This document shows positions 13,960 to 56,580 of a stretch of DNA of 64,000 nt, in pieces. Position numbers and translations under genes: made by a program. A model generated the notes under the pieces. The model was not told the origin of the DNA. It did not search any database and saw nothing but the letters and a program-made list of their open reading frames with translations. Location: contig CAYQZQ010000001.1 in assembly GCA_964422035.1 (NCBI GenBank), positions 121,013 through 185,012 on the forward strand, in the 5' to 3' direction. Each line of letters opens with the position of its first letter. Positions within the stretch are counted from its first letter, which is position 1. Origin of the DNA: an uncultured Pseudomonadales bacterium. GTDB lineage: Bacteria > Patescibacteriota > Microgenomatia > UBA1400 > Chazhemtobacteraceae.

Positions 13960-13977
13960 TTAACTATATTTAAGATA

Positions 13978-15027: not shown

Positions 15028-15028
15028 T

Positions 15029-16249: not shown

Positions 16250-16318
16250 GGACTTGACAAGGGCACTTAGGTGCATCATAGTTAAGATATAATAAATATT
16301 TAGTTGTACCTGCCTCAA

Positions 16319-16870: not shown

Positions 16871-16946
16871 AGAGATTTAAATTAAAAAGAAGAAACAGTC
16901 AGTATTTAACTGGCTGTTTTTTTATGATTGATGATAAGATGGCTTT

Positions 16947-17747: not shown

Positions 17748-18280
17748 TAATAAGAATGAGGGACAAACAAGTTAGAGGTTTTACATTAATGGAGATACTT
17801 ATTGCAATGGCAATTATAGGTATTTTGGCTAGTGTGGGATTTGGTTCATACATTAGAAGCTTAAAAAAAGGTCGAGATGCACAACGAAAATCTGATCTGA
17901 ATCAGGTTCAAAGTGCACTGGAGGCTTATATGAGCGATTTTCAGGTGTATCCGGGTTGTAATTCGGAAGGTAAGATTGTTGGTTGTAGTGATGGAGATGC
18001 TGATTGTGATTGGGGTGATTCATTTGTTAGAAATGTGGGAGATACCACGAAAACATATATGAGTAGGTTGCCTGAGGATCCTGTGTCTGGAGCAGATTAT
18101 GTTTATGTTTCGGATGGAGATAAGTATCAATTGTTTTCTGTTTTGGAAAATGATCAGGATCCTGATTATGTGGATAGCTATACGACTGTATGTGGCGAAG
18201 AGGCTTGTAAGTATGGAGTGCCTAGTCCAAACAATAACATGAGTGCTGAAATGACAATTGCAGACGATTGTTCGTTGTAA
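17744..18280 (+). CDS. pilin-like protein with prepilin leader
   Basis: RGFTLMEILIAMAIIGILA prepilin leader. Confidence 0.75.
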   Translation: MIIRMRDKQVRGFTLMEILIAMAIIGILASVGFGSYIRSLKKGRDAQRKSDLNQVQSALEAYMSDFQVYPGCNSEGKIVGCSDGDADCDWGDSFVRNVGDTTKTYMSRLPEDPVSGADYVYVSDGDKYQLFSVLENDQDPDYVDSYTTVCGEEACKYGVPSPNNNMSAEMTIADDCSL

Positions 18281-18309
18281 TTATCAAATTGATGGGATAG
18301 TATTAAATT

Positions 18310-18753
18310 ATGATTAGTCAGGAAAAGAAGGGGTTTACATTAATTGAGCTTTTAGTGGTAGTGGCGATAATTGGAACATTGACGGGTTTGGCTACTGTTA
18401 ATTTTCAGGATGCAAGAGAGCGAGCAAGAGACGCTCAGAGAAAAGGAGACGTGAAGCAGATTCAGAAGGCTATGGAGCTTTATAAGAATGATCAGTCAGC
18501 TCAACACTACCCGGATGATAATGATCCTGTCGAGACTTGGAGAGAAAAGTTGGAATCAGGAGGATATATGAATAATGTACCCAATGACCCCAAGGCTAGG
18601 GCAGCAGAAAGTAGTTGGCCTGATTACGAATATGATCGCAGTAGTGTTTTGGAGTACACCTTGGTGGCTTGTTTGGAGAATCCTGCAGATCTAGATATAG
18701 ATGAGACAAATACTTGCGATAGTGGCTATAGTTATACATTAACCCAACCTTAA
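18310..18753 (+). CDS. pilin/pseudopilin-like protein
   Basis: KGFTLIELLVVVAIIGTL leader followed by GspG-like QRKGDVKQI. Confidence 0.75.
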   Translation: MISQEKKGFTLIELLVVVAIIGTLTGLATVNFQDARERARDAQRKGDVKQIQKAMELYKNDQSAQHYPDDNDPVETWREKLESGGYMNNVPNDPKARAAESSWPDYEYDRSSVLEYTLVACLENPADLDIDETNTCDSGYSYTLTQP

Positions 18754-18755
18754 AA

Positions 18756-19181
18756 ATGGAAAACAAACAAAGAGGATTTACATTACTTGAGCTTTTAGTA
18801 GTTATTGGAATTATTGGAATATTAGTAGGTATCGGGACTATTTCGTACCAGTCTGCACAAGAAAAAAGTCGTGACTCTAGACGGCGTGGAGATTTAAAGG
18901 CGATTTCAAATGCTTTAGAGCAGTACTATGCTGAAAATACTGGCAGTTATCCTCAAGATATAGCTTGCACCGGATATGTTGATTATTTATCTGGTCCCGA
19001 ACCTACTGATCCAGTGACTGGTGATACTTATCTTGATGATGGCGACTGCGTTGTTGATGGAAGCAGTTATTGTGTGTGCGTAGAACTTGAAGGAACTGGG
19101 ACTGGGAATGCTTATGATGCAAGTTGTACCTGGACGGGCTCGGGAGACAAAGATTATTTTTGTGTTGAAAACCTACAATGA
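18756..19181 (+). CDS. pilin/pseudopilin-like protein
   Basis: RGFTLLELLVVIGIIGIL leader, RRRGDLKAI, and several Cys. Confidence 0.75.
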   Translation: MENKQRGFTLLELLVVIGIIGILVGIGTISYQSAQEKSRDSRRRGDLKAISNALEQYYAENTGSYPQDIACTGYVDYLSGPEPTDPVTGDTYLDDGDCVVDGSSYCVCVELEGTGTGNAYDASCTWTGSGDKDYFCVENLQ

Positions 19182-19579
19182 TAAATAATCGTAAAGGTTT
19201 TACGTTCATCGAGCTTTTGGTGGTGGTAACTATAATTGGGGTGTTGGCGGCTGTGGGTATGGTTAGTTATACGAGTACGAACAAAAGTGCTCGAGACTCA
19301 AAGAGGCTGGCTGATCTGGAACAAATAAGGACAGCATTGGAGATTTGTAGATCTGAGGCCGGTAGTTATCCAGCTGATATTTCAAGCGGAGTAGTTTGTG
19401 GTGGTGACTCTTATTTGTCTCCCCTACCCAGTGATCCCTGGGATAGTAAGACAGAGTATGGTTATAGTTATACTCAAAATTCTGAAACAAGTTATGATAT
19501 TTGTGCAACTTTGGAAAATGATGATAAATGCACAGGAACAATAAATGGAGATGGAGAATGTTGCCTAAGCAATCCTTAA
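19178..19579 (+). CDS. pilin/pseudopilin-like protein
   Basis: KGFTFIELLVVVTIIGVLA leader. Confidence 0.75.
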   Translation: MINNRKGFTFIELLVVVTIIGVLAAVGMVSYTSTNKSARDSKRLADLEQIRTALEICRSEAGSYPADISSGVVCGGDSYLSPLPSDPWDSKTEYGYSYTQNSETSYDICATLENDDKCTGTINGDGECCLSNP

Positions 19580-20037
19580 AGACCAAGGCTTTTACTTTAA
19601 TTGAAATAATGGTGGTTATATCGATAATTGCTCTGTTGAGCGCAGGATCTTTGGTGGCATTTAATAACTTAAGAGAGAAAAGGTTGGTTAGAGGTGATGC
19701 AGATTTGGTAATACAGGAGTTGAAGAAGGCAAGAACAAAGGCAAGATCGGGTGAAAAACCTGAAGCTTGTCTTTCAGATTTAGAAGGATACGAAGTAGAA
19801 GTGTCTGGACCCTCTGTGATTTTAAGAGTAAGTTGCGGAAATACGATAGAGCATAATACAGTACAGATGCAAAACAGTTCAATTGTAGGCACTGAAGAGG
19901 TTGAGTTCGATGCGTTGGGAGGAGCCACTCCAGCAACTATTTATGTATGTGGAAGCAATAGTCTATATGGATATGCAATTGAGGTGACGGGCTCAGGCTT
20001 GATTGAGTCACCTGTAGAATACAGTGGTTGTAGTTAA
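19558..20037 (+). CDS. pilin-like protein
   Basis: KAFTLIEIMVVISIIALLSA leader. Start assigned to the internal Met. Overlaps the previous gene by 22 nt. Confidence 0.65.
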   Translation: MLPKQSLKTKAFTLIEIMVVISIIALLSAGSLVAFNNLREKRLVRGDADLVIQELKKARTKARSGEKPEACLSDLEGYEVEVSGPSVILRVSCGNTIEHNTVQMQNSSIVGTEEVEFDALGGATPATIYVCGSNSLYGYAIEVTGSGLIESPVEYSGCS

Positions 20038-20052
20038 AACTTTTAAGATATT

Positions 20053-20463
20053 ATGAAGTTATTTAAAGACATTAACGGCCAGACTTTGATAGAAGTGATA
20101 GTAGCTGTGGCGGTGATAAGTTTGGTTTTAACAGGGATTGTCATAGCGGTAACTAGTGGATTGAAGACTTCAAGAATATCTAGAGAAAGATTTGAGGCAA
20201 GGAGGATTGTTGATTCTGAGTTGGAAGACATACGAAGTGAAAGAAATAACGATCCTGGTAGTTTTTTTGTAAGTGAAAATGCTGGAGATACCATTGAGGT
20301 AGGTCCTGATGTGGTAGAAGGCAACTCGACTAGTTATGAGAAAACAGTGACTTATGATTATGCTGCTGATGGCAGAGAGGTTGAAGTGACGGTTGCAGTG
20401 GAATGGGGGGGTGAAGAATCATATTCTGTAAGCCAGACAACGATATTAACTCTTTGGCAGTAG
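20053..20463 (+). CDS. minor-pilin-like protein with atypical leader (GQTLIEV)
   Basis: NGQTLIEVIVAVAVISLVL resembles PilV/GspI-type minor pilin leaders. Confidence 0.55.
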   Translation: MKLFKDINGQTLIEVIVAVAVISLVLTGIVIAVTSGLKTSRISRERFEARRIVDSELEDIRSERNNDPGSFFVSENAGDTIEVGPDVVEGNSTSYEKTVTYDYAADGREVEVTVAVEWGGEESYSVSQTTILTLWQ

Positions 20464-20487
20464 GTTAATTATTGATATGATGAGTTT

Positions 20488-20961
20488 ATGAAGGGGTTTA
20501 CATTAATGGAATTGGTAGTGGTGGTTGCAGTTATGGCGGTGGCTTTAGCAGCGACAGCTGGTTTATTTACTCAATCTTTTAGGAGTGGTAGTAAGACTGA
20601 GAAAATAGTTTTGGTAGAAGAGAACATGAGACAATCAATGGATATTATGGAGAGAATGATTAGAAATGCTTCTAAAATAGAAAGTGTTGGTGGAGGTGTG
20701 TGCCCAGGGTCAGGGCAGAGCTTGACGATATTAAATACTGATAATGATACGACTATTTTTTCTTTAAGTGATGGGCAGATTGCTTCTAACGGGGCTGCCT
20801 TAAGTGGAGATAAGGTTGTGGTAGAGAGTTTGCAGTTTCAGTGTATTAGGAATAGCGGGGCGCCTGATAAAGTTGAGATTAATACGCAGGCGAGAGCAGA
20901 TGTGGATGAGGAGGGTGATATAGTAGAATATACTAGAAATGTTGATTTAAGAAACTATTAA
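20488..20961 (+). CDS. pilin-like protein
   Basis: MKGFTLMELVVVVAVMAV leader. Confidence 0.7.
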   Translation: MKGFTLMELVVVVAVMAVALAATAGLFTQSFRSGSKTEKIVLVEENMRQSMDIMERMIRNASKIESVGGGVCPGSGQSLTILNTDNDTTIFSLSDGQIASNGAALSGDKVVVESLQFQCIRNSGAPDKVEINTQARADVDEEGDIVEYTRNVDLRNY

Positions 20962-20970
20962 AGATTAAAT

Positions 20971-21762
20971 GTGTATATGGGTATAAAAAGAGATGAGTCA
21001 GGGCAGGTAGCAGTCATTGTGGCTTTGAGTATGGCAGTTATGGCCACTATTACTCTATCTGTGGTGAGCAGATCAGTAGTAGATTTAAGGTTAACTGATA
21101 TTGAGGAGGAGTCCGCGTCAGCATTGAAAGCAGCTGAGGCTGGTCTTGAAAAAGCTCTGAAAGGTCTTGAGTCTGATGATTTTAGTAGTAGCGATTTTCC
21201 AGGTGCGTCTTATCAGGTTGATGTAGAAGACAAAGGTGAGACAGGTTTTGTTACCGCGTCGGCGATAAGTAGAGGCGAGGTTGTTGAGGTTGAGATGGGA
21301 GGGGCTAATCCGCCATCTAGTATAAGAGTTTATTGGGGAGATAGTAATGATGACAACCAGTCCCCTACTGGCGCAGTTGAGATTTTAAAATACAGCAAGG
21401 TTTCTGATAGTGATTATAGAGTTGAGAGATTTGTTTATGATCCAGATGCTACTAGGAGGTCGTCTAATAATTTTTCTGCTCCACTTTCAATCAATCCGGG
21501 AGGTTTTCAGAGTGTTGATTTTACTGCTAGGTCAGAGATTCTTACAGATGCTGATGATGTTTTGATTAGGATAAGAACTTTTTATAATCTGGCAACTTTG
21601 GGGGTTGAGCCTTTGGGAGGGGTGCTACCTCAGCAGATATATGAAGCGGTGGCAACAGGTGAGGCGGCAGATGATGTGCAAAGGAAAGTCAGGGCGGTAA
21701 GAGGTAGTCCTCAATTGCCGGCAGCTTTTGATGCGGCTTTATATTCAGGAGGTAGTTTGTAG
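20971..21762 (+). CDS. PilX_N-like pilus-associated protein
   Basis: ESGQVAVIVALSMAVMATITLSV hydrophobic N-terminus typical of PilX N-terminal domains. Lies inside the pilus locus. Confidence 0.45.
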   Translation: MYMGIKRDESGQVAVIVALSMAVMATITLSVVSRSVVDLRLTDIEEESASALKAAEAGLEKALKGLESDDFSSSDFPGASYQVDVEDKGETGFVTASAISRGEVVEVEMGGANPPSSIRVYWGDSNDDNQSPTGAVEILKYSKVSDSDYRVERFVYDPDATRRSSNNFSAPLSINPGGFQSVDFTARSEILTDADDVLIRIRTFYNLATLGVEPLGGVLPQQIYEAVATGEAADDVQRKVRAVRGSPQLPAAFDAALYSGGSL

Positions 21763-21785
21763 TTGTTTAATGTTATGATAATGTT

Positions 21786-22778
21786 ATGTCTGCCCAGCTA
21801 GGAATCGATATTGGTACAGCAAATATAAAACTTGTTTCTCTAAGTGGTAACAAGATTAATGGTGCCCAAGTGATTAGTAACCCTTTGGGCAAGATTAAAC
21901 TGGAAACTGAATCTGAAGTTGTAAAGATGGTTGAGGAGATGAAGAAGTCCTTATTTTCTGAGATAAAATTGTCGGGACAAAGCACTGCTGTGGTGGTGCC
22001 TGAAAGTGTTGTGTATAGTCGAGTCATCAGCATGCCTGTGTTGACTGACGCGGAATTATCAAACGCTATAAAGTGGGAAGCGGAACAATATGTACCCCAA
22101 CCGTTGGAGGAAGTTGAGCTGTCATGGCAGGTTGTAGATAAGCCTCAAAAAACAGAAGGCAAGATGAAGGTATATTTAGTGGCGATTGATAAAAAGGTTG
22201 TAGGTGGTTTAATAAATATGTTTTCAAGATTAGGGTTGGAGCCGACTAGTATTAAGCCTGAGTTTGTTGCAGCCTCATCTTTAATTAGAAGTAAGGGAGA
22301 CGTGATGTTGTCTACCATGGGTGCAAGTACAGTTACAAGTGGTGTATTTAGGGATGGTAATTTGCTTTTCATATATCAATTTGGAAGTGGTGGAACAGCA
22401 ATGACAAGGGCAATATCTTCAGGTTTGCAGCTTAATACCTCTCAAGCTGAAGAGTACAAACGTTCATATGGTGTGAGAAAAGATGTTTTGGAGGGAAAGT
22501 TATATCAGGCAATGAGGCCCGTAACTGAGGGAGTTATATCGGAGCTTAAGAAGGTAGTTGGTTATTACAATCAAAATTTTGCAGATAAGGGCCAGTTGGT
22601 TAATCTTTCAATTTGTGGAGGTATGGCGCTAACACCGGGGATAGTGCAGTTGTTGGGCTCTGAGTTAAATGTTGAGACAGAGCTTTTAAGTAGTTTTGGT
22701 GATGTAGAGTTTGAGGTTCAAATAGATAACAGATTACGAGTAGTGTACGCTCCAGCAATTGGTGCTGTAAAAAGTTAA
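21786..22778 (+). CDS. pilM: type IV pilus assembly protein PilM (actin-like ATPase fold)
   Basis: LGIDIGTANIKLV N-terminus and ICGGMA motif. 330 aa. Confidence 0.85.
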   Translation: MSAQLGIDIGTANIKLVSLSGNKINGAQVISNPLGKIKLETESEVVKMVEEMKKSLFSEIKLSGQSTAVVVPESVVYSRVISMPVLTDAELSNAIKWEAEQYVPQPLEEVELSWQVVDKPQKTEGKMKVYLVAIDKKVVGGLINMFSRLGLEPTSIKPEFVAASSLIRSKGDVMLSTMGASTVTSGVFRDGNLLFIYQFGSGGTAMTRAISSGLQLNTSQAEEYKRSYGVRKDVLEGKLYQAMRPVTEGVISELKKVVGYYNQNFADKGQLVNLSICGGMALTPGIVQLLGSELNVETELLSSFGDVEFEVQIDNRLRVVYAPAIGAVKS

Positions 22779-22780
22779 AT

Positions 22781-23329
22781 ATGGCAGATTTAAATGTTGA
22801 TTTATTGTCAGGTAAGGCAAGAGGAATAGCTCGGACGAACAGAATTGTGAAGTGGCAAAAAAAGGCTGTTTGGATAATATTAGGTTTATTTCTAGTTATT
22901 TCGTTCGGTGTTTTTGCTTGGTGGGGGTTTGAAGTTAATAGAAAATCTAAAATTGAAAAGAGGCAGAGAAGGTTGTTGGCAGAGCTTGAAGATAGATCAG
23001 ATCTTCAAGGTCGATATATGTTGACTAAAGAAGTTTTATTTCAAGCGGATCAAATACTGGGGGTAAGAAAAGATTTTGAAGGAGTCTTGTCTGATGCATA
23101 TTCTCTACTTCCCCCTGGATCAGTCGCAAGAGGTATAAATTTTGGTGATAATAATGTTTCTTTGCAGGTAAGTAATGATGGAGTTCAAGAGTATGCAAGC
23201 TTAATAAGAAATTTAGAGGTAGTTGAGGATCACGATCGTTTTCAGTCTGCTACAGTTGTATCTTCAACTAGATTACGAGATGGGAGTTGGACAGCAAATT
23301 TAGTATTTAATTTCAAAAAAGCTTTATGA
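22781..23329 (+). CDS. pilN: PilN-like bitopic pilus assembly protein
   Basis: Single N-terminal TM helix. Position directly after pilM. 182 aa. Confidence 0.55.
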   Translation: MADLNVDLLSGKARGIARTNRIVKWQKKAVWIILGLFLVISFGVFAWWGFEVNRKSKIEKRQRRLLAELEDRSDLQGRYMLTKEVLFQADQILGVRKDFEGVLSDAYSLLPPGSVARGINFGDNNVSLQVSNDGVQEYASLIRNLEVVEDHDRFQSATVVSSTRLRDGSWTANLVFNFKKAL

Positions 23330-38990: not shown

Positions 38991-39398
38991 ATGTTTGTTT
39001 GTAAAAATTGCAATAGAGAAATAAGTGAGGATGCTTTAGGCACAGAGTACAGAAATCATTGTCCTGATTGTTTATATAGTGTTCATCTTGATGAGAAGAG
39101 CCCTGGTGATAGAATGTCTGGCTGTAAAGGGTTAATGAAACCGATTGGATTGCAGTTTAAAAATGAGTCAGGAGGAAAGGGTGAGATCATGATCGTGCAC
39201 AGGTGTAAGGGTTGTGGCAAAATAAGTAAAAATAGAATTGCTGGTGATGATAAGCCAGAAGCTATTTTGGAGGTTTTTAGGAAAAGTCTGAATGAGGAGG
39301 GTGAGGTTAGTCTTTTGGATAAAGAAGATGAGAAGGAAGTATTGACACAATTATTTGGAAAGCCTTGGGTAGAAGAACACTTTAATAAGCCGAAGTAG
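38991..39398 (+). CDS. RNHCP-domain zinc-ribbon protein
   Basis: The literal motif EYRNHCPDC followed by a second CxxC pair (CKGCGK). Confidence 0.65.
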   Translation: MFVCKNCNREISEDALGTEYRNHCPDCLYSVHLDEKSPGDRMSGCKGLMKPIGLQFKNESGGKGEIMIVHRCKGCGKISKNRIAGDDKPEAILEVFRKSLNEEGEVSLLDKEDEKEVLTQLFGKPWVEEHFNKPK

Positions 39399-39461
39399 CT
39401 CAACTGGTAGAGCGGCAGTATCGTAAACTGCAGGTAGTGGGTTCGAGTCCCACCTTCGGCT
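39389..39461 (+). tRNA. tRNA-Thr (anticodon CGT)
   Basis: GCCGAAG/CTTCGGC acceptor stem, anticodon loop ATCGTAA, GGTTCGAGTCC T-arm. The 5' end overlaps the last 10 nt of the upstream CDS. Confidence 0.9.
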
Positions 39462-39467
39462 CCAGTA

Positions 39468-40085
39468 TTATCGAGGAATTGAAAGTATCCAGCCTGGTTC
39501 GATAAGTCCAGGGTTTGGTCCAATAAGTTCTATGTTGGTTTGGTAGATCTGTGTCCATTGGTAGCCGTCGCCGTATGCTCTGACAGAGATTTCCCAAAGA
39601 TTATCACCTTCTTTCACGGTGTACTCGTCTCTTTCTATGCTTGGGCTATCCATTTCATGATCAGTTTTATCCATGGCAACAGTAGGTTGCATGACTTCGG
39701 ATTTAGGAATGATTAACTCTTGTCCTACGGCAAGTTGACTGGGGTTATTTAGGTTGTTTGCTTTGGCAATATCTACCCAGTTGTATCCTGAGTTGTAGTA
39801 ATCTTCAGCAATTTTCCAGAGATGATCACCTTCTTTTACTTCGTAAGTTGTTGGTAGGCCTTGAGGTATTTTTTTGCCTTCTTCTTCAACAATTTTTGGT
39901 TGGCCGGGAACAGGAGTTGTTTTTTCTTGAGCAGCTTGGTCAGTAATTTGTCCCCTATCTATAGACTTAAAATAATTAAATACAAGTAATCCGATAACAA
40001 CGACTACAATTCCTCCTAAAATCGTGCTGATTGTATTCTCGTTTAGTTTGATTTTTTTGAGGAGGTTTTTGATTTTTTGTTGCAT
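39468..40085 (-). CDS. membrane-anchored protein with two LysM peptidoglycan-binding domains
   Basis: N-terminal TM helix. Two repeats of Y.VK.GD.LW.IA...G..W..I...N. Confidence 0.8.
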   Translation of the reverse strand: MQQKIKNLLKKIKLNENTISTILGGIVVVVIGLLVFNYFKSIDRGQITDQAAQEKTTPVPGQPKIVEEEGKKIPQGLPTTYEVKEGDHLWKIAEDYYNSGYNWVDIAKANNLNNPSQLAVGQELIIPKSEVMQPTVAMDKTDHEMDSPSIERDEYTVKEGDNLWEISVRAYGDGYQWTQIYQTNIELIGPNPGLIEPGWILSIPR

Positions 40086-40231: not shown

Positions 40232-40282
40232 GGGGCTGACGGGATTCGAACTCGCGGCCTTCTCCGTGACAGGGAGACACTC
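40232..40282 (-). repeat. 51-bp partial copy (2 mismatches) of the 3' two-thirds of tRNA-Asp; att-like direct repeat
   Basis: ggggctgacggga(t)tcgaac(t)cgcggccttctccgtgacagggagacactc matches 42233-42283 in the same orientation, then diverges. Confidence 0.8.
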
Positions 40283-42231
40283 AATATTTATGTGAGTGTT
40301 TAGCCAGTATTTTTTTTATTCAGTTTTAATTGAATCTTCAATCTTTTTAATCTCTTCTGAAGAAAAACCAAAGTTATCTTTTAACCCCCTTTTTATATTT
40401 TCTATCCACTCCTCTTTACTGCTATCCACTGCTTTTTGAAGTGTTTCTCTAGAGAATCTTTTAATCATCTCTAGCTTTTCATTAGCAGAGACACCGAAAG
40501 AATCAGCTAAGCTGTCAAACTCTCTTCTTATACCCTCATTCGGAGTTGATAGTATTACAGCTTTAATGTAACCATATGTTGGCACATTAATGAACTTAGC
40601 AAGGAGTGAAACAATATCTAGATTTCTAGAAACTTCAGATTGTGGAATCATATGAAATAACTTAACTGCCTTTTCTAGGTTTTCTAGTGCAGTCTCGTGA
40701 TACTTAAGATAAATTTTCTCAGCCTCTTCTGTCTTGTTTCGTTTTTCTATTTCAGACTTGAGTAAAGTCGTTATTTCTTTCATTTTTTCAAATTCTTCAT
40801 TATCTGGGGCAATTAATTCAGCGTCCAGCCTTAGGAAATAAGACTCTAGAGCCTGATCTAAGACGTTTATAATATTCTCATCAGTAATAGACCTTTCTAT
40901 CATTGAAACATCTCCACTATAAAAATATCTTTCACTAAACTCATTTTCATCTGTCCATCTCAATTCTTCTAATTTTAGAACCGAGGACTCTTTAAGTCTT
41001 TGTATAATTTTGTCCGATGTTTTCTTTCTTCCTATTCTTCCACCCCTTCTTTCTTTACCAAGGAAATTAATCAACAAATCAGATCCTGTGACAATATCAT
41101 CAAATTGTCTTTTTCTTTTTGAGGCAAACTCTTTACTATTTTTTTTCTCTAACTCTGACTGTTTTTTGGGATAAGAGAACTCGATAGGAACAGACTTGAC
41201 CTTCTTATCAAGACTTAGGGCAACATATATCGGAAAATAAACAGCATTAGAGTATGCTTCTGGCTTTACTTTACCCCAGAAAGGACTATCTTCAGGTATC
41301 TCAAATGTCTCTCCAAAAAGACTTTTTAATTCAGAAGTATTTTTAATAGCTCTCGTTCCACCAAACAAGTCTAGTACTGAATCTCTTTTTTTTCGTAAAC
41401 CAGCCTCAACAAGCATGCGGTGTATTTTAAGGTTGGCTTTTCTTTCTGAAACCGCTTGGAATTTTGGGTAACCACGAAAGTCATTGTACTGATCTCCCAA
41501 CTCCTTAACTCTAATACCCCTGTCTGGAATAACGATATCAGCTTTGCCTTCACTTATCGGTTGAGTGATATTGAAAATCTCATCCACCAATTGAGTTTTT
41601 TCTATTTCTACCTGAATGAGAGAGCCTTTTTTTCCAATGGATCTGAGATATTCACTACTAGAAATGATGTCCGTGATATTTTTAATAGACTCAATTCTAG
41701 CTTGACTGTAACCTCTCTTTTTTTGATCTAAAAGCCATATTAATCCGGGCATTTTGTCTCTTTTTTCACGACTTTCTTTTCTTGTTTCTAAGAGATTGAC
41801 AGAATCTTCAACTGTGCCCGGTTGTCTTATCGTAATCTCATCAGAAAACCTTCGAGGGTTTATCTCACCGACCATTTGAGTGAAGAGAGGAGAACTACCA
41901 CCATCAACAACGGAAATATTAATTCCCTTCTTATTTAATCTCTCAATAGACTCTAATGCCAAGCTACCCCTAACACTATCAGAAACTTCTTTATTCTTGG
42001 GGTCAAATTCAGGAAAATATGTGGTAGCGATAACCATAACCGACTGTTCAGGTTTAAGTTTTTCGTTTTCTCCATTTTTTTCTGCTTCTTGATCCTCTCG
42101 TATTAAAAGTTCATATCTTTTACTAAGATTTTTGTGATAATTTTCAATATTTTGATTTTGGACTCTTTTCTCTTCCATAACTACACACATTATATATTTT
42201 TATATCAGGAAGCATTTCAGGCAGACATGTG
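40283..42231 (-). mobile_element. candidate integrated islet (about 1.95 kb) in the 3' end of tRNA-Asp, carrying a single cargo gene and no integrase
   Basis: Bounded by the intact tRNA-Asp (42232-42306) and its 51-bp direct-repeat fragment (40232-40282). Confidence 0.45.
40316..42190 (-). CDS. hypothetical 624-aa protein; N-terminal region weakly GT-A glycosyltransferase-like, C-terminal helical region of unknown function
   Basis: VMVIATTYFPEF...INISVVDGGSS resembles the VxVVxPxxNEE...VVDDGSTD pattern of GT2/GT81 enzymes. No canonical DxD is obvious. The rest is K/E-rich helical sequence. Confidence 0.55.
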   Translation of the reverse strand: MCVVMEEKRVQNQNIENYHKNLSKRYELLIREDQEAEKNGENEKLKPEQSVMVIATTYFPEFDPKNKEVSDSVRGSLALESIERLNKKGINISVVDGGSSPLFTQMVGEINPRRFSDEITIRQPGTVEDSVNLLETRKESREKRDKMPGLIWLLDQKKRGYSQARIESIKNITDIISSSEYLRSIGKKGSLIQVEIEKTQLVDEIFNITQPISEGKADIVIPDRGIRVKELGDQYNDFRGYPKFQAVSERKANLKIHRMLVEAGLRKKRDSVLDLFGGTRAIKNTSELKSLFGETFEIPEDSPFWGKVKPEAYSNAVYFPIYVALSLDKKVKSVPIEFSYPKKQSELEKKNSKEFASKRKRQFDDIVTGSDLLINFLGKERRGGRIGRKKTSDKIIQRLKESSVLKLEELRWTDENEFSERYFYSGDVSMIERSITDENIINVLDQALESYFLRLDAELIAPDNEEFEKMKEITTLLKSEIEKRNKTEEAEKIYLKYHETALENLEKAVKLFHMIPQSEVSRNLDIVSLLAKFINVPTYGYIKAVILSTPNEGIRREFDSLADSFGVSANEKLEMIKRFSRETLQKAVDSSKEEWIENIKRGLKDNFGFSSEEIKKIEDSIKTE

Positions 42232-42306
42232 CGGGGCTGACGGGACTCGAACCCGCGGCCTTCTCCGTGACAGGGAGACACTCTAAACCAACTGAGCTAC
42301 AGCCCC
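42232..42306 (-). tRNA. tRNA-Asp (anticodon GTC)
   Basis: GGGGCTG/CAGCCCC acceptor stem, anticodon loop CTGTCAC, GGTTCGAGTCC T-arm. Confidence 0.9.
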
Positions 42307-51385: not shown

Positions 51386-54300
51386 ATGTCAAATGATTTT
51401 GTTCATCTTCATGTTCACAGTGAGTATTCTCTATTGGATGGTCTCTCCAATATTGACAAGATGGTTGATAGAGCCAAGGAGCAGGGCGCAAAAGCGATTG
51501 CACTAACTGATCATGGTTCAATGTACGGAGTAATCGAGTTTTATAAGAAATGCAAGAAGGAAGGTATTAAACCCATTGTTGGATGTGAGATTTACATGTC
51601 TAAGGATGATTATAAAAAGAAAAAGCGAAGAGATGCTTATCACTTGACTGTTTGGGCGAAGAATAAAGCAGGTTATAAAAATTTGATGAAGATTGTATCG
51701 ATAGGTCATCTGGAGGGATTTTATTACAAACCTAGAGTTGATATAGAACTTTTAGGCAAGTATTCTGAGGGGCTTATGGCTAGCTCTGGATGTTCGTCGA
51801 GTTTAATTTCTAAACAACTGCTTAATGAATCTTATGAGAATGCTAAGGAAACTACTGAAAAATTTATAGATATATTTGGTGCAGATGATTTTTATATAGA
51901 ATTGCAGCGTCACCCTTATAAAAAAATGGCCAATGAGCAAGATGTGCCTGAAAAAGTAAAAAAAGACTTGGAAAGAATGGAAGAGGAGCAGGAGATAGTT
52001 GAGAAAGGTTTAGTTAAGCTATCTAGAGAGCTAGGTCTGCCGATTATTGCTACAAACGATGTCCATTATGTAGAGAAAGAAGATGCTGTAGCTCAAGATG
52101 CTGTTGTTTGTATTCAAACAGGAAAAATGATTGATGAGATTGATCGAATGAGGTACGTAGATACGCCGGATTTTTATCTTAAGTCTACAAAAGAGATGAA
52201 GGAGATTTTTGCAGATTTACCAGAGGCTGTAGAAAATACTGTTAAGTTAGCTGAGAAAGTTGATTTGCAGATTAAATTAGGTGAATGGTATTTTCCCAAG
52301 TTTGACTTGCCGGAAGGCAAGACGGCTGGTGAGGCTTTGCGAGATATGGCTTATAAGGGAGCAGAGGAAAGATTTGGTGAAATTAATGAAGAAATAGAAG
52401 AGAGGCTCGATTATGAGTTGAAGATTATTGATGATAGAGGTTACTCTCCGTATTTTTTGATTTATGCTGATATGACCCGTTATGCCAGCGAGAACGGTAT
52501 ATTTGTAAATACTAGAGGGAGTGCTGCAGGATCTTTAGTTTCATATTGTTGTGGAATTACGACTGTTGATCCTCTTCGTTATGATTTACCTTTTGAGCGT
52601 TTCTTAAACCCTTATCGTCCATCGCCTCCTGATATTGATTTAGATATTTCTGATGATCGTCGAGATGACATGATTAATTATTTGAGAGATAAATATGGTG
52701 ATGAAAAGGTAGCTCAAATTTGTACTTTTGGAACAATGAAGGCCAGGGCTGCAGTGAGAGATGTAGGAAGAGTGATGGGTATGCCCTACTCTCAGCCGGA
52801 CAGGGTGGCGAAGATGATTCCTTTGGGTAGTCAGGGATTTAAAATGACTTTAGACAGGGCTCTTAAAGAATCTAAGGAGCTTAAGAGAGCATATAAAAGC
52901 GAAGATGAGACACGGGAGTTGATAGAGATGGCAAAGAAAATTGAGGGGAATGTAAGACACATATCTGTGCACGCAGCTGCGGTGGTTGCTTCGCCGACTG
53001 AGATGACTGATTTTACGCCTTTGCAAACAGAGCCGGGTAGTGGAGACAAGGTAATTACTCAGTATGAGATGCATGCGTGTGAGGATGTTGGTCTTATTAA
53101 GCTTGATATTTTGGGGATAAGAAATTTGTCAATTATGGCTAACGCAATTACCATAATTGAGAAACTACAAGGTATTGAGATTGATATATATAAGATTCCT
53201 TTAGATGATAAGCAAACTTTTGAGATGTTATCAAAGGGGAGAACTTTTGGTGTGTTTCAACTGGCGTCTTCTGGGATGACTAGATATCTAATGGAGCTTG
53301 AGCCGGAGAGAATTGAAGACATTATGCAGATGGTGGCTTTGTATCGACCGGGACCGATGTCATTTATTCCGGAGTATATTAAGCGTAAGCATAATCCTAA
53401 GTTAGTTAAGTATATGGATCCTCGAATGGAGGACATACTAGAAAGTTCTTATGGGGTGATTGTTTATCAAGATGATGTTTTGTATGTAGCTCTTGAGTTG
53501 GCTGGTTATGACTGGGGTGAGGCGGACAAATTTAGAAAAGCTATTGGTAAAAAAATCCCTGAGGAGATGGAGAAACAGAGGGATAAGTTTATCAATGGAT
53601 GTGTAGAGAACGGCATGGATAAAAAGGTGGCTATAGAGTTGTTTTCAAGGATTGAGACGTTTGCTGCATATGGTTTTAATAAAGCTCATGCTGCAAGTTA
53701 CGGAATGGTAAGTTACTGGACAGCTTATCTTAAAGCTAACTATCCGATTGAGTACATGACTGCCCTTTTAACAGCTGAGTCAGGCAATACTGACAAGTTG
53801 GTTGAGGCTATTAATGAGTGTGAAGAGATGGGAATAAAAATATTGCCTCCAGATGTTAATCAATCATTAATTGCTTTTACTGTAGTCAAAGAAGATAACG
53901 GAGAGAGAGCGATAAGATTTGGGTTGAGTGCTATTAAGAATGTGGGTGAAGCAGCTGTTGAGGCGATTCTTGAGGATAGAAAAGCAAATGGAGAGTTTAG
54001 TTCGTTATCGGATTTTTGTATGCGGGTTGATGCCAGGAAGGTGAACAAAAAAGTTTTGGAAAGTTTAATAAAATCAGGAGCGATGGATCGTTTTGGAGAA
54101 AGAGCAGCCTTGATGGCTGGTTTGGGAAATATTAGAAATAAGGCTTCATCTATGCAAAAGAAAAAAGAAGCGGGACAGGAAAGCCTATTTGGAAATGTGA
54201 GTAAGGAGAATAATCCGATGGCTATCAAGGATGTTTTGCCTGATGTTGAACCTTGGGCAAAGAAGGATAAACTACGATTTGAAAAAGAACTTTTAGGCTT

Positions 54301-54865
54301 TTATCTTTCTGATAATCCGATTAAATCAGTTATGGGCAAGATGGAGTCTTTGATTACCCATAGAATAAATCAGTTAGATGTCAAGCATCATGTTGGTCAG
54401 ACTGTAAAGGTAGTGGGAATGATAACTGACATTAGGAAAGTGCAAACAAGGAGAAATAACGATTCGATGGCGTTTGGTGAAATCGAGGATGATAGTGGTT
54501 CGGTTAATATTGTTGTTTTTCCAACAATTTATGATGAAACAAGGAAGTTTTGGGAGGAAGACAAGCTGGTATTTATTGAGGGTAAGGTTGATGATAGGGA
54601 TAACAATCTTAATTTATTGGTAGGTTCGGTTGAATTGATTGAGAATGTCAAAGAACCTGACACGAAGATCAGAAGGATTAAGATTCCCCGTGGTACTGAA
54701 AAATCGGTATTAAGAGAAATTAGCAACCTGCTTAGAGAAAACCCCGGAGATGATAGGGTGAAGATAGTAGTTCCTAATAATGGAGGACCTAAAATTATTG
54801 ATGTTCCTTTCACTGTAGATTATTCCAAAAAGCTTGACAGTAAAATTGATAAGCTGTTAGACTAA
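51386..54865 (+). CDS. dnaE: DNA polymerase III alpha subunit
   Basis: PHP start FVHLHVHSEYSLLDG, palm and fingers regions, OB fold near the C-terminus. 1159 aa. Confidence 0.95.
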   Translation: MSNDFVHLHVHSEYSLLDGLSNIDKMVDRAKEQGAKAIALTDHGSMYGVIEFYKKCKKEGIKPIVGCEIYMSKDDYKKKKRRDAYHLTVWAKNKAGYKNLMKIVSIGHLEGFYYKPRVDIELLGKYSEGLMASSGCSSSLISKQLLNESYENAKETTEKFIDIFGADDFYIELQRHPYKKMANEQDVPEKVKKDLERMEEEQEIVEKGLVKLSRELGLPIIATNDVHYVEKEDAVAQDAVVCIQTGKMIDEIDRMRYVDTPDFYLKSTKEMKEIFADLPEAVENTVKLAEKVDLQIKLGEWYFPKFDLPEGKTAGEALRDMAYKGAEERFGEINEEIEERLDYELKIIDDRGYSPYFLIYADMTRYASENGIFVNTRGSAAGSLVSYCCGITTVDPLRYDLPFERFLNPYRPSPPDIDLDISDDRRDDMINYLRDKYGDEKVAQICTFGTMKARAAVRDVGRVMGMPYSQPDRVAKMIPLGSQGFKMTLDRALKESKELKRAYKSEDETRELIEMAKKIEGNVRHISVHAAAVVASPTEMTDFTPLQTEPGSGDKVITQYEMHACEDVGLIKLDILGIRNLSIMANAITIIEKLQGIEIDIYKIPLDDKQTFEMLSKGRTFGVFQLASSGMTRYLMELEPERIEDIMQMVALYRPGPMSFIPEYIKRKHNPKLVKYMDPRMEDILESSYGVIVYQDDVLYVALELAGYDWGEADKFRKAIGKKIPEEMEKQRDKFINGCVENGMDKKVAIELFSRIETFAAYGFNKAHAASYGMVSYWTAYLKANYPIEYMTALLTAESGNTDKLVEAINECEEMGIKILPPDVNQSLIAFTVVKEDNGERAIRFGLSAIKNVGEAAVEAILEDRKANGEFSSLSDFCMRVDARKVNKKVLESLIKSGAMDRFGERAALMAGLGNIRNKASSMQKKKEAGQESLFGNVSKENNPMAIKDVLPDVEPWAKKDKLRFEKELLGFYLSDNPIKSVMGKMESLITHRINQLDVKHHVGQTVKVVGMITDIRKVQTRRNNDSMAFGEIEDDSGSVNIVVFPTIYDETRKFWEEDKLVFIEGKVDDRDNNLNLLVGSVELIENVKEPDTKIRRIKIPRGTEKSVLREISNLLRENPGDDRVKIVVPNNGGPKIIDVPFTVDYSKKLDSKIDKLLD

Positions 54866-54927
54866 GGATCCAGTTGGTTAATCAATCATGTAGGTTAGCC
54901 GGCTGGTTTTTTGTTATTAAAAGAGTT

Positions 54928-56580
54928 ATGAAAACAAAGTTTATTTTTACAATTGGTGGGGTTTTGTCGGGACTTGGGAAAGGTATTACTACAGCTTCGG
55001 TAGGTCTACTTTTAAAACAAAGAGGATTTAAGGTTACAGCGGTCAAAATAGATCCTTATATAAGTATCGATGCGGGTACTATGAGGCCGGCTGAACATGG
55101 TGAAACTTTTGTTACTGCAGATGGTGGGGAGATCGATCAGGATTTGGGCAACTATGAAAGATTTTTAGGAGTTGAGTTGTCAAAGGACAATAATATTACA
55201 ACAGGTAAAGCTTATAAAGGAGTTATCGACAAGGAAAGATCATTTGCTTATGAAGGGAGAGATGCTCAGATCTTTCCGGATCTTATTAATGAGATTAAGG
55301 AGAGTATTTATAAATCTGGCGAAGGTTATGATTTCTGTTTAGTTGAAGTGGGAGGAACTACTGGTGATATTGAAAACCTTCCCTTTTTGCATGCAGTTAG
55401 AGAGATTGGTAAGGAAAATGATGCGGTGTATCTAATGGTGACTTATTTACCTTTTTTGAAAAATGTGGGAGAGCTAAAGACAAAACCCACCCAGCATGCG
55501 GTAGCTGAGTTACGAAGTGTAGGTATTTTTCCTGATTTGATAATTACCAGAAATGAGATTCCTATTGATCAACCAAGAATCGAGACTATTTCGAAGCGGT
55601 GTTTTATTGACGAGGAAAAGATTATTGATAATCCTGACACTGAGAATATCTATTCCATTCCCCTGCTCTTTGAAAAGGAAGAGGTGGCAGACAAAATTTT
55701 GAGAGAGTTTGAAATAGAGAATGGTAAGTCTGATTTAAAGGAGTGGAAGAGCATTGTAGATAATATTGATAATCCTGATAGGAAATTAAGAGTAGGAATG
55801 GTTGGTAAGTATCATAAGCACGGCGCTGATGTGCATAAGGATGTATATATTTCAGTTTATGAAGCGATTACCCACGCTGCTGCAAAACTAGCTGTTGAGA
55901 TTGAACTGGTTCCGATTGAGTCTGAAAAGCTAGAAGATGGGAAGAATGTCAAGATAATAATGGGTAAGTATAACCTGGATGGATTAATAGGGCCTCAAGG
56001 TTGGGGTACCAGAGGCGTTGAAGGAATTATTAAGGGTATAGAGTATGCCAGGGAGGAGAAATTGCCTTATCTGGGCTTGTGTTTTGGAATGCAGTTGCTT
56101 ACCGTTGAGTATGCACGAAATGTTGCTGGTTTGGATGAAGCTAATTCAGTTGAGGTCGACAAGGAAACAGCTCATCCAGTAGTCCATATTATGCCCGACC
56201 AGAAGAAGTATCTTGAGAAACAACAGTATGGAGGTACAATCCGACTTGGAAACTGGTCGTGCAAAATTAAAGATGGGACGTTGATAGAAAAATGCTATTT
56301 AGAACATGGGTATGAAAAAGAAGATGGTGATTTGATAGTTGATGAGAGACACCGTCATCGATACGAGTTTAACAATAAGTACAAGGATCAGTTGGGAGAA
56401 AAGGGCTTGGTATTCAGTGGCGTGTCGCCAGATGGAAAACTGGTAGAGGCTGTCGAGTTACCTGTTGATATGCATCCATTTTTTGTTGGAACTCAGTTTC
56501 ATCCGGAGTATAAATCGAGGGTAATGGAGCCTCACCCATTGTTTATTGAGTTTATAAAAGCTTGTGTTGAGGCTAATTAG
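54928..56580 (+). CDS. pyrG: CTP synthase
   Basis: MKTKFIFTIGGVLSGLGKG P-loop and C-terminal glutamine amidotransferase domain (GLCFGMQ). Confidence 0.9.
   Translation: MKTKFIFTIGGVLSGLGKGITTASVGLLLKQRGFKVTAVKIDPYISIDAGTMRPAEHGETFVTADGGEIDQDLGNYERFLGVELSKDNNITTGKAYKGVIDKERSFAYEGRDAQIFPDLINEIKESIYKSGEGYDFCLVEVGGTTGDIENLPFLHAVREIGKENDAVYLMVTYLPFLKNVGELKTKPTQHAVAELRSVGIFPDLIITRNEIPIDQPRIETISKRCFIDEEKIIDNPDTENIYSIPLLFEKEEVADKILREFEIENGKSDLKEWKSIVDNIDNPDRKLRVGMVGKYHKHGADVHKDVYISVYEAITHAAAKLAVEIELVPIESEKLEDGKNVKIIMGKYNLDGLIGPQGWGTRGVEGIIKGIEYAREEKLPYLGLCFGMQLLTVEYARNVAGLDEANSVEVDKETAHPVVHIMPDQKKYLEKQQYGGTIRLGNWSCKIKDGTLIEKCYLEHGYEKEDGDLIVDERHRHRYEFNNKYKDQLGEKGLVFSGVSPDGKLVEAVELPVDMHPFFVGTQFHPEYKSRVMEPHPLFIEFIKACVEAN

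What the first reader, a model, noticed from the sequence alone, without database searches (positions are those of the whole stretch)
40316..42190. 624-aa cargo protein of unrecognised function inside the tRNA-bounded islet
It is the only gene between the att-like repeats. The N-terminal roughly 230 aa loosely resemble a GT-A nucleotide-sugar transferase (hydrophobic strand VMVIATTYFPEF, then INISVVDGGSS similar to VVDDGSTD). No canonical DxD motif was found. The C-terminal roughly 350 aa are helical and K/E-rich with no motif I can place. Single large genes delivered by tRNA-targeting elements are frequently defence, surface-modification or host-interaction factors. This candidate could be a novel surface glycosylation or anti-phage function.
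Basis: inference. Interest (0 to 1): 0.7.

Follow-up and report, generated by a model that had tools for sequence, protein, structure and literature searches.

The report
Mobile divergent glycosyltransferase gene at tRNA-Asp
The 624-aa gene encodes a very divergent sugar-transferring enzyme (GT-A fold) fused to a helical domain with no informative match, and it travels as a single-gene cassette, without its own integrase, inserted into the tRNA-Asp gene of a tiny-genome (CPR/Patescibacteria) bacterium; this is a new variant of known things, not a new kind of system.

Summary
ORF 40316-42190 (-) is real and is the only gene between tRNA-Asp and a 51-nt copy of that tRNA's 3' part (49/51 identical; none expected by chance). 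Its likely true start is the ATG at 42178, which gives 620 aa.

The protein belongs to an unmodelled family of about 660 sequence clusters, mostly ~300-aa proteins. 23 of 52 members tested touch Pfam Glycos_transf_2 weakly, and some sit in sugar-biosynthesis clusters. The C-terminal 240 aa form an alpha-helical repeat domain seen in only seven proteins.

In relatives the gene sits at the same tRNA-Asp, inside tandem arrays of integrase-less islets that share an end motif. Its synonymous divergence (dS ~1.0, dN/dS 0.16) is far below that of the saturated flanking genes, so it was transferred horizontally and is under selection.

The acceptor substrate is unknown, and there is no evidence for a defence role. 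Verdict: a new variant of a known kind, of moderate interest.

The parts
42231..42306 (-). tRNA-Asp(GUC), the intact (regenerated) integration target. Its positions 24-74 (42233-42283) form the proximal copy of the direct repeat.
   Evidence: ARAGORN and Rfam; repeat family D1; BLAST of the tRNA against the window.
40316..42190 (-). ORF of 624 aa (probable true start ATG 42178, 620 aa): a GT-A-fold glycosyltransferase-like protein with a C-terminal alpha-helical repeat domain. It is the single gene of the islet.
   Evidence: Purifying selection, dN/dS 0.16 against the 74%-identical orthologue.
41171..42049 (-). GT-A catalytic domain (residues ~48-340). It is preceded by an N-terminal helix (residues 14-45) and followed by family-conserved helices up to residue ~382 (coordinate 41045).
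41597..41608 (-). E195-I-E197-K198, the family's E-x-E-K motif at the C-terminal end of strand beta4, where GT-A enzymes carry DxD.
   Evidence: Translation EIEK. E195 and E197 are conserved in 52/53 and K198 in 53/53 family members. The profile alignment places ExE on D89-A-D91 of PfDPMS. Strand 190-194 in the model.
40319..41044 (-). C-terminal all-alpha domain (residues 383-624, 13 helices, helical-repeat-like). Its most conserved patch is S-R-N-L-D (residues 521-525). It is found only in the seven long-form homologues.
40283..40315 (-). Right end of the islet: 33 nt between the stop codon and the tRNA fragment. It carries a diverged copy (AAACACTCACATAAATATTGAG) of the end motif TCAACACATAA(A)CATATT that ends related islets.
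   Evidence: Alignment A5; junction listings; pattern search in the loci.
40232..40282 (-). Displaced 3' fragment of tRNA-Asp (positions 24-74), the distal copy of the direct repeat (attR-like). It carries 2 substitutions, one of which breaks a T-stem pair.
   Evidence: ARAGORN and Rfam do not call it as a tRNA.

Best explanation
The gene encodes a soluble enzyme with a GT-A glycosyltransferase fold. It belongs to a divergent GT2-like family that no public model covers and that is found mainly in small-genome (CPR/Patescibacteria-like) organisms.

Inferred mechanism:
- It binds a nucleotide-sugar in the Rossmann-like half of the domain. D96 of the VDGGSS motif would contact the nucleotide.
- E195/E197 stand in for DxD at the metal/diphosphate site, possibly helped by the invariant K198.
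- It transfers the sugar to an acceptor that is probably anionic or phosphorylated. Two things suggest this. The family has a ring of invariant Arg/Lys residues (R74, R165, K198, R224, R280, K358, R359). Its closest structural relatives (DPMS, ArnC, GtrB, MGS, MPGS, GpgS) all glycosylate phosphate- or carboxylate-bearing acceptors.
- The clade-specific C-terminal helical-repeat domain most likely docks the enzyme to a partner or substrate, or mediates oligomerisation.

The gene is not core. It is a single-gene cassette inserted by site-specific recombination into the anticodon-to-3' part of tRNA-Asp. It has no integrase of its own, so it would have to be mobilised in trans or be a remnant. It has been exchanged horizontally between Pacebacteria-like lineages and is kept by purifying selection.

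Shown: the fold, the family, the conserved motifs, the cassette boundaries, the horizontal transfer and the selection. Inferred: the catalytic roles of individual residues, the donor, the acceptor and the role of the C-terminal domain.
For: Fold:
- AF2 model, mean pLDDT 78.8.

Sequence:
- An exhaustive profile search finds 663 cluster representatives at E<=1e-3, most of them 280-350 aa and covering profile positions ~30-370.
- 23 of 52 members hit Pfam Glycos_transf_2 at E<=0.01, best 1.2e-7, and one exceeds the gathering score.
- The weak NCBIfam hits are to the glycosyltransferases AglJ and PpgS.
- The profile aligns VVDggS, gmSasRr, EpEK and aDivipkR onto the corresponding DPMS segments, including its DAD motif.
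- No 19-residue window is hydrophobic enough for a transmembrane helix.

Context of distant members: they sit next to PMT_2 (GT-C), GT2, epimerase, DegT, GDP-mannose dehydratase and NUDIX genes.

Mobility:
- The 51-nt tRNA repeat in the window.
- Orthologues at the same tRNA-Asp with fragments starting at tRNA position 24-25.
- A single-gene unit bounded on both sides by fragments in L030-32.
- A shared end motif.
- pS 0.55 and dS 1.0 for this gene against pS 0.77-0.85 (saturated) for six flanking genes, with dN/dS 0.16.
- 74% amino-acid identity against 34-70% for the flanking genes.

Host: the best named ThrRS relatives are Candidatus Pacebacteria and Patescibacteria, and the source contig is 725 kb.
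Against: - The query itself matches no Pfam or NCBIfam glycosyltransferase model even at E<=1.
- It has no phmmer hit in the PDB by sequence, and the profile-to-DPMS hit is marginal (E 0.014).
- The DxD motif is absent. The likely C-terminal metal-binding His (H in 36 of 53 family members) is Tyr340 here. Activity and metal dependence are therefore not assured.
- The model rests on an 11-sequence alignment.
- I could not inspect model coordinates, so clustering of the invariant residues at the active site is inferred from secondary-structure register, not seen.
- No donor or acceptor can be named. In this window and in the long-form homologues' loci the gene has no glycan-pathway neighbours.
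- No integrase lies in or next to any of the islets, so active mobility is not demonstrated.
- G+C is not atypical.
Confidence: 0.65

Rival explanations
1. It is specifically a polyprenyl-phosphate glycosyltransferase (DPMS/GtrB/ArnC-like). It would make a lipid-linked sugar that a GT-C enzyme then uses to glycosylate envelope proteins or polymers, which is the surface-modification reading.
For: The best PDB sequence match and the second-best fold match are both DPMS. ArnC and GtrB are also in the fold list. Weak NCBIfam hits go to the polyprenyl-phospho-GalNAc synthase PpgS and to AglJ. A distant 295-aa member lies 18 nt downstream of a PMT_2 GT-C gene. Many invariant basic residues would fit a phosphate acceptor. 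From the literature, GT2-DP enzymes need no xED base (PMC7185993).
Against: The protein has no transmembrane or clearly amphipathic membrane segment. There is no GT-C gene among the window ORFs that were scanned or next to any long-form homologue. The PMT_2 cluster of L014 already contains a separate 232-aa GT2 that could do this job. The top fold hit is a soluble small-molecule enzyme (MGS).
Confidence: 0.2
2. It is a small-molecule or protein glycosyltransferase acting in the cytoplasm. Either it is MGS/MPGS/GpgS-like and makes a glycosylated phosphoglycerate-type solute, or it is a protein-modifying enzyme that uses the C-terminal helical repeats to hold its target.
For: Four of the five best fold matches are MGS, MPGS (two entries) and GpgS. 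The protein is predicted to be soluble. MGS also has a helical C-terminal domain (my own knowledge). Helical-repeat domains are typical protein-binding modules (one search shows only generic matches). The gene stands alone in every long-form locus.
Against: There are no sequence hits to the MPGS or GpgS families. No partner phosphatase gene (MpgP or GpgP) lies nearby. No target protein is identifiable.
Confidence: 0.25
3. It is an anti-phage or host-interaction factor, for example one that glycosylates nucleic acid or a phage or host protein, delivered by a mobile islet.
For: It is a horizontally transferred single-gene islet cargo under purifying selection. A second 48%-identical paralogue exists in the same 725-kb genome. 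Long-form homologues lie beside tRNA genes or a transposase fragment in 3 of 3 independent loci. The conserved basic residues could equally bind nucleic acid.
Against: 0 PADLOC families and 0 PHROGs. BFVD gives only weak generic GT-A matches. No relative is found in 2.9 million viral contigs. No defence genes lie nearby. There is no signal peptide or secretion hint.
Confidence: 0.08
4. It is a sugar-phosphate nucleotidyltransferase, or an inactive GT-A-like scaffold, rather than a glycosyltransferase.
Confidence: 0.07

Closest known systems
Dolichol/polyprenyl-phosphate glycosyltransferases of GT2 (PfDPMS 5mlz, ArnC, GtrB; the 'GT2-DP' clade)
   Different: ExEK stands in place of DxD. There are no transmembrane helices. 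The query has no significant sequence hit. Extra family-specific conserved motifs are present (YPxxQxxSE, LDxxFGxR, (H/Y)PxxQxxxE, KRxxQ). A 240-aa C-terminal helical-repeat domain is added.
Mannosylglycerate synthase (GT78, 2bo4), mannosyl-/glucosyl-3-phosphoglycerate synthases (GT55, GT81)
   Different: Only 9-11% identity. There are no profile hits to those families. Those enzymes keep DxD plus a metal-binding His. No compatible-solute pathway genes lie nearby.
tRNA-gene-integrated genomic islands and islets (the Islander definition, PMC4383910)
   Same: An intact tRNA gene plus a displaced 3' fragment in direct orientation mark the ends. The fragment starts near the anticodon stem, which corresponds to the 'anticodon-centred' class. 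Tandem arrays occur at one tRNA gene.
   Different: No integrase gene lies in this islet or in any of the neighbouring islets. The size is only 2 kb with one gene. G+C is not atypical. Unrelated islets share a ~20-nt end motif.
Integron gene cassettes
   Same: Single-gene, recombinase-less units arranged in tandem at one attachment locus, each ending in a related recombination-site-like sequence.
   Different: There is no IntI and no attI or attC structure. The repeated unit is a tRNA 3' fragment. The resemblance is in function and appearance only and has not been tested.

Membership tests
GT-A fold glycosyltransferase superfamily (core features as in Taujale et al. 2020, PMC7185993) | Rossmann-like alpha/beta/alpha GT-A core | tested here: met
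GT-A fold glycosyltransferase superfamily (core features as in Taujale et al. 2020, PMC7185993) | DxD motif at the end of beta4 that binds metal and diphosphate | tested here: not met
   The literal DxD is absent. E195-x-E197(-K198) occupies the position and is conserved in 52/53 members. The paper notes that some GT-A families (GT14, prokaryotic GT6) have lost DxD.
GT-A fold glycosyltransferase superfamily (core features as in Taujale et al. 2020, PMC7185993) | xED catalytic base, G-loop glycine and C-terminal His | tested here: inconclusive
   Candidates are E249 (invariant, early in helix 243-262), G225 or G278, and position 340 (His in 36/53 members, Tyr in the query). I had no structural superposition with residue mapping.
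Pfam Glycos_transf_2 (PF00535) / CAZy GT2 | Score at or above the Pfam gathering threshold (23.3 bits) | tested here: not met
   The query has no hit even at E<=1. 23 of 52 relatives hit at E<=0.01, and of the ten relatives scanned individually only P0018 exceeds the cut-off, at 26.5 bits.
Pfam Glycos_transf_2 (PF00535) / CAZy GT2 | Assignment by CAZy/dbCAN family models | not testable with these tools
   No CAZy or dbCAN library was available.
Polyprenyl-phosphate glycosyltransferases (DPMS/GtrB/ArnC) | Membrane anchoring by transmembrane or interface helices, or a dedicated membrane partner | tested here: not met
   The maximum 19-residue Kyte-Doolittle mean is 1.2, so no transmembrane helix is predicted. 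Existence of a partner is unknown.
Polyprenyl-phosphate glycosyltransferases (DPMS/GtrB/ArnC) | Genomic coupling to a GT-C enzyme that uses the lipid-linked sugar | tested here: not met
   None in the window or beside the long-form homologues. It is seen only for one distant 295-aa member.
MGS/MPGS/GpgS compatible-solute synthases (GT78/GT55/GT81) | Sequence membership in those families and a partner phosphatase gene | tested here: not met
   The resemblance is fold only. No Pfam or NCBIfam hits and no such neighbours.
tDNA-integrated genomic island (Islander criteria, PMC4383910) | Intact tRNA gene plus cognate displaced fragment, correctly oriented, delimiting the insert | tested here: met
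   The same architecture is seen in L001-5 and L030-32.
tDNA-integrated genomic island (Islander criteria, PMC4383910) | Tyrosine integrase gene inside the island | tested here: not met
   The islet holds one gene, and it has a GT-A fold. The only tyrosine recombinase found in the window is Xer-like, at 5317-6267, 35 kb away. tblastn finds none in the related loci.
tDNA-integrated genomic island (Islander criteria, PMC4383910) | Evidence of foreign or horizontal origin | tested here: met
   pS 0.55 for this gene against 0.77-0.85 for six flanking genes. There is presence/absence polymorphism of neighbouring islets between contigs that are 99.9% identical. G+C itself is not atypical.
Known anti-phage defence systems (PADLOC-DB 2.0) | Match to any defence-protein model | tested here: not met
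   0 families at E<=1.

The most novel reading that the evidence does not exclude
tRNA-Asp in these Pacebacteria-like CPR genomes may serve as a gene-capture site. It would hold tandem arrays of small cassettes that lack an integrase. Each cassette ends in a conserved ~20-nt motif plus a tRNA 3' fragment, and the cassettes would be inserted, lost and exchanged between lineages by a recombinase acting in trans, or by recombination between the 53-nt repeats. This would be functionally integron-like. The 624-aa protein would be one such cassette and would found a new glycosyltransferase family that uses an E-x-E-K motif in place of DxD.
Probability: 0.2. Interest if true: 0.65.

Novelty: new variant of a known kind. 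Interest (0 to 1): 0.4.

Why it matters
CPR/Patescibacteria have tiny genomes and live attached to hosts, and their envelope biochemistry and gene flow are poorly known. This is an accessory enzyme of glycosyltransferase type that selection maintains, that has two paralogues in a 725-kb genome, and that has demonstrably moved between lineages. That makes it a concrete candidate for strain-level variation in surface or metabolite glycosylation.

The family has about 660 sequence clusters, no Pfam or NCBIfam model, and ExEK in place of DxD. It would extend the catalogue of GT-A motif variants and deserves a profile.

The integrase-less islet arrays at tRNA-Asp also offer a tractable, sequence-defined case for asking how small-genome bacteria acquire genes.

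None of this overturns current understanding. The fold and the integration logic are both familiar.

Tried and rejected
- Direct family searches of the query against Pfam, NCBIfam, PADLOC, PHROGs and PDB sequences gave nothing usable.
- Idea that the protein is itself the recombinase of a single-gene mobile unit: rejected. The fold is GT-A and shows no serine- or tyrosine-recombinase features.
- Idea that adjacency to tRNA-Asp means a tRNA-modifying (queuosine-glycosylating) enzyme: rejected. The adjacency is explained by the att structure, and homologues lie beside other tRNAs (Gln, Pro) or none.
- Search for the donor element gave nothing. There is no relative of the protein and no exact copy of the att core in viral contigs, and no integrase in any fetched locus.
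- Partial copies of tRNA-Gln or tRNA-Pro next to the homologues in L013 and L012: none found.
- The C-terminal extensions of two other long family members (P0080, P0017) have no PDB sequence match.
- A second profile (A4) against the PDB gave only noise.
- Foldseek against AFDB50 was unavailable.
- The first attempt to scan metagenome contigs with the wide alignment failed because it had no conserved stretch.
- The paralogue P0005 could not be located. It is not on record in the contig index and is not in the window.
- The promoter and terminator scan showed nothing above chance.
- Literature searches for this family, for ExE-type GT-A motifs and for CPR glycosyltransferase islands found nothing specific.
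Full report
**1. The observation**

The ORF at 40316-42190 on the minus strand is real. The database copy (P0001, on a 725,544-bp NCBI contig) starts four codons later. Met5 is the residue that aligns with the N-termini of the homologues, so ATG 42178 (620 aa) is the likelier start.

ARAGORN and Rfam place tRNA-Asp(GUC) at 42231-42306 (-), 40 nt upstream and on the same strand. A 51-nt direct repeat of tRNA positions 24-74 lies at 40232-40282, 33 nt after the stop codon. It is 49/51 identical to the tRNA copy. A 28-nt core occurs exactly twice in the window, against zero in 100 shuffles. None of the other four tRNAs has a partial copy.

The ORF is the only gene between the two copies. The LysM gene (39468-40085) and tRNA-Thr lie outside them. 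G+C (0.33-0.37) is like the flanks.

**2. What the protein is**

The query hits nothing in Pfam, NCBIfam, PADLOC, PHROGs or the PDB by sequence. The word-indexed protein search finds only 11 relatives. One of them, P0005, is a 48%-identical paralogue on the same 725-kb contig and lies outside this window.

Nucleotidyltransferases with the related fold reach at most 12.7. Foldseek against viral models gives only weak generic GT-A hits.

**3. The family**

An exhaustive HMM search of 1.84 billion cluster representatives with the 11-sequence profile finds 663 proteins at E<=1e-3 and 132 at E<=1e-30. Most are 280-350 aa and match profile positions ~30-370, which is the catalytic domain plus a conserved helical extension.

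Across 52 diverse members the invariant residues are R74, K198, R224, E249, D274, G278, Q344, E348 and R359. Nearly invariant are T57, G75, D96, S99, R165, E195, E197, D218, P242, Q245, N253, N284, P320, P341, K358 and Q362.

The family signature at the end of strand beta4 is E-(P)-E-K, which reads EIEK in the query. This is where GT-A enzymes carry DxD. The family profile aligns to PfDPMS with VVDggS on VVDDDS, EpEK on DADL and aDivipkR on SDIAIGSR, although the E-value is only 0.014.

23 of the 52 members hit Pfam Glycos_transf_2 at E<=0.01 (best 1.2e-7), and one exceeds the gathering score. The query does not hit. The weak NCBIfam hits are to the glycosyltransferases AglJ and PpgS. No member examined has a transmembrane-grade hydrophobic segment.

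The GT-A literature lists DxD, the G-loop, xED and a C-terminal His as the conserved catalytic elements. It also notes that some families have lost DxD, and that polyprenyl-phosphate transferases lack the xED base because their acceptor is a phosphate (PMC7185993). In this family the candidate C-terminal His position (residue 340) is His in 36/53 members but Tyr in the query.

**4. The C-terminal domain**

Its best-conserved patch is S-R-N-L-D. Other family members carry different, unrelated N- or C-terminal extensions, and two that I tested have no PDB match. The catalytic core is therefore combined with variable accessory domains. This is what one expects if those domains decide the target or the location.

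**5. Genomic context of relatives**

Distant ~300-aa members are sometimes embedded in glycan or nucleotide-sugar clusters:
- L014-16: directly after a PMT_2 GT-C gene, before a 232-aa GT2, with epimerases, a NUDIX gene and GT1/GT4 genes.
- L022: between a GT2 gene and a GDP-mannose dehydratase gene.
- L024: among DegT, epimerase and GT2 genes.

Other members have unrelated neighbours.

The 520-aa subfamily sits between folD and rpsB with no tRNA nearby.

The long form is always a stand-alone gene at a tRNA or a mobile-element scar:
- tRNA-Asp in the window and its orthologues.
- tRNA-Gln 34 nt from the stop codon in L013.
- tRNA-Pro plus a transposase fragment in L012.

**6. The islet**

*Orthologue P0002 (74% identity; loci L001, L002 and L004).* It lies directly after tRNA-Asp. 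A copy of tRNA positions 24-76 lies 5.2 kb downstream. Between the two are the GT gene, a 71-aa ORF, a NUDIX gene, a 52-aa ORF, a radical-SAM/SPASM gene, an 80-aa ORF and a 156-aa ORF.

*L003 and L005.* A further 2.3-kb islet (four small ORFs, no integrase) sits between the tRNA and the GT gene and has its own fragment. The sequence after that fragment is the one that follows the intact tRNA in L001. This is the signature of serial site-specific insertion.

*Orthologue P0003 (69% identity; L030-32).* The GT gene alone is flanked by two tRNA-Asp fragments.

*Shared end motif.* Right after the GT stop codon, all three lineages carry a related end motif (TCAACACATAAACATATT; diverged to AAACACTCACATAAATATT in the window). 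The tRNA fragment follows it, although in L001 that fragment has decayed. The same motif ends the unrelated 2.3-kb islet and precedes another fragment in L004. The GT gene is therefore a discrete single-gene cassette within tandem arrays of small islets.

*No integrase.* None of the islets holds an integrase. The only tyrosine recombinase found in the window is a Xer-like gene 35 kb away.

*Comparison with the Islander definition.* By that definition an island has a regenerated tRNA gene plus a displaced fragment marking its ends, with an integrase inside (PMC4383910). Here the boundary criterion is met and the integrase criterion is not.

**7. Horizontal transfer and selection**

I compared the window with the L001 lineage.

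| Gene | aa identity | pS |
|---|---|---|
| GT (this gene) | 74% | 0.55 (dS ~1.0, dN/dS 0.16) |
| CTP synthase | 70% | 0.83 |
| LemA | 57% | 0.82 |
| GatB | 56% | 0.85 |
| GatA | 51% | 0.78 |
| LysM | 51% | 0.80 |
| PolX-PHP | 44% | 0.77 |

All figures are. tblastn gave similar identities. All six flanking genes are saturated at synonymous sites.

Nucleotide similarity between the window and L001 begins at the first base of the tRNA gene. It ends 5 nt after the stop codon (77.5% over 2012 nt). It resumes only at the fragment. The cassette therefore diverged much later than the host genomes, which indicates horizontal transfer, and it is under purifying selection.

At population level, L001 and L003 are 99.9% identical over 8.1 kb to the right of the tRNA fragment. 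They differ by the 2.3-kb islet, and they are only 95% identical to the left of the tRNA gene. This locus is an active recombination hot spot.

No relative of the protein and no exact copy of the att core was found in viral contigs.

**8. Host**

The best named ThrRS relatives are Candidatus Pacebacteria and Patescibacteria, at 57-63% identity. The contig is 725 kb. The window otherwise encodes housekeeping functions and a type IV pilus cluster. The organism is a CPR/Patescibacteria bacterium.

**9. Interpretation**

The best-supported reading is a soluble GT-A glycosyltransferase of a divergent GT2-like family that no public model covers. E195/E197 (with K198) would replace DxD at the metal/diphosphate site, and D96 would contact the nucleotide.

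The acceptor is probably anionic. The structural neighbours all glycosylate phosphate- or carboxylate-bearing acceptors, and the family keeps many invariant Arg/Lys residues. These residue roles are inferred from motif register, not seen in coordinates.

The C-terminal helical repeats probably dock a partner or substrate.

The acceptor remains open. My estimates are polyprenyl phosphate about 0.2, a small molecule or protein about 0.25, and a defence or host-interaction role about 0.08. The rest is unassigned. A nucleotidyltransferase or an inactive scaffold is unlikely.

The anti-phage idea has no support from PADLOC, PHROGs, BFVD or the gene's neighbourhood.

**10. Novelty**

The fold and the tRNA-integration logic are both known. 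What is new here:
- a sizeable GT-A family without any public model, with ExEK in place of DxD
- a clade-restricted helical domain
- the family's occurrence as a single-gene, integrase-less, horizontally exchanged cassette in tandem islet arrays at tRNA-Asp of CPR bacteria

I rate it a new variant of a known kind, with interest 0.4. The most novel reading not excluded is an integron-like, trans-mobilised cassette system anchored at tRNA-Asp.

Noticed in passing
L003:3568-11199; L005; L001:7871-13233; L030:802-2832: tRNA-Asp in the related genomes carries tandem arrays of up to three small islets: a 2.3-kb islet with four small ORFs, the GT cassette, and a 3.3-kb islet with NUDIX and radical-SAM/SPASM genes plus small ORFs. 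Each ends in a tRNA-Asp 3' fragment, and none has an integrase.
   Followed up: partly
window 40283-40304; L001:9893-9916; L030:2778-2798; L003:5838-5862; L004:1408-1428: A ~20-nt motif (TCAACACATA[A/G](A)CATATT) directly precedes the tRNA fragments at the ends of unrelated islets. It may be a shared attP arm or recombinase-binding site.
   Followed up: partly
L001 vs L003: The two contigs are 99.9% identical over 8.1 kb to the right of the tRNA-Asp fragment but only 95% identical to the left of the tRNA gene. The PHP gene next to the tRNA is present in L001 and absent in L003. This indicates a recombination breakpoint at the tRNA gene.
   Followed up: partly
not in the window (protein P0005, same 725,544-bp contig): The same small genome holds a second, 48%-identical long-form paralogue. 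Its nearest relative, P0004 (57%), abuts the 3' end of a tRNA-Gln gene in L013. The paralogue's own locus could not be retrieved.
   Followed up: partly
window 5317-6267 (+): A 316-aa tyrosine recombinase with Phage_integrase and SAM_1 domains (XerC/D-like). It is the only recombinase found in the window and the only candidate there for action in trans on the islets.
   Followed up: no
window 38991-39464: The RNHCP-domain ORF (38991-39398, +) overlaps the start of tRNA-Thr(CGU) (39389-39464) by 10 nt. The LysM gene ends 4 nt from the other end of that tRNA. In relatives a CTP synthase gene lies between LysM and tRNA-Thr, whereas in the window it is at 54874-56580. This is a local rearrangement.
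   Followed up: no
window 12178-23329: A type IV pilus gene cluster: two PilB/PilT-like ATPases, PilC, the prepilin peptidase PilD and PilM. This is typical of CPR bacteria. Pilins are a conceivable glycosylation target, but no link was found.
   Followed up: no
L001:10337-10828; L014:10547-10999; L021:6898-7356: NUDIX hydrolase genes recur near members of this glycosyltransferase family in three unrelated contexts. This may point to a nucleotide-sugar link.
   Followed up: no
L001:1-3180: The DnaE (DNA polymerase III alpha) gene of the related lineage carries an intein with a LAGLIDADG endonuclease. The window's 1159-aa ORF at 51386-54865 was not checked.
   Followed up: no
proteins P0008, P0014, P0017, P0021, P0032, P0051-53, P0080, P0151: Other members of the family carry unrelated N- or C-terminal extensions of 150-300 aa, so the architecture is modular. 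The two extensions tested have no PDB sequence match.
   Followed up: partly
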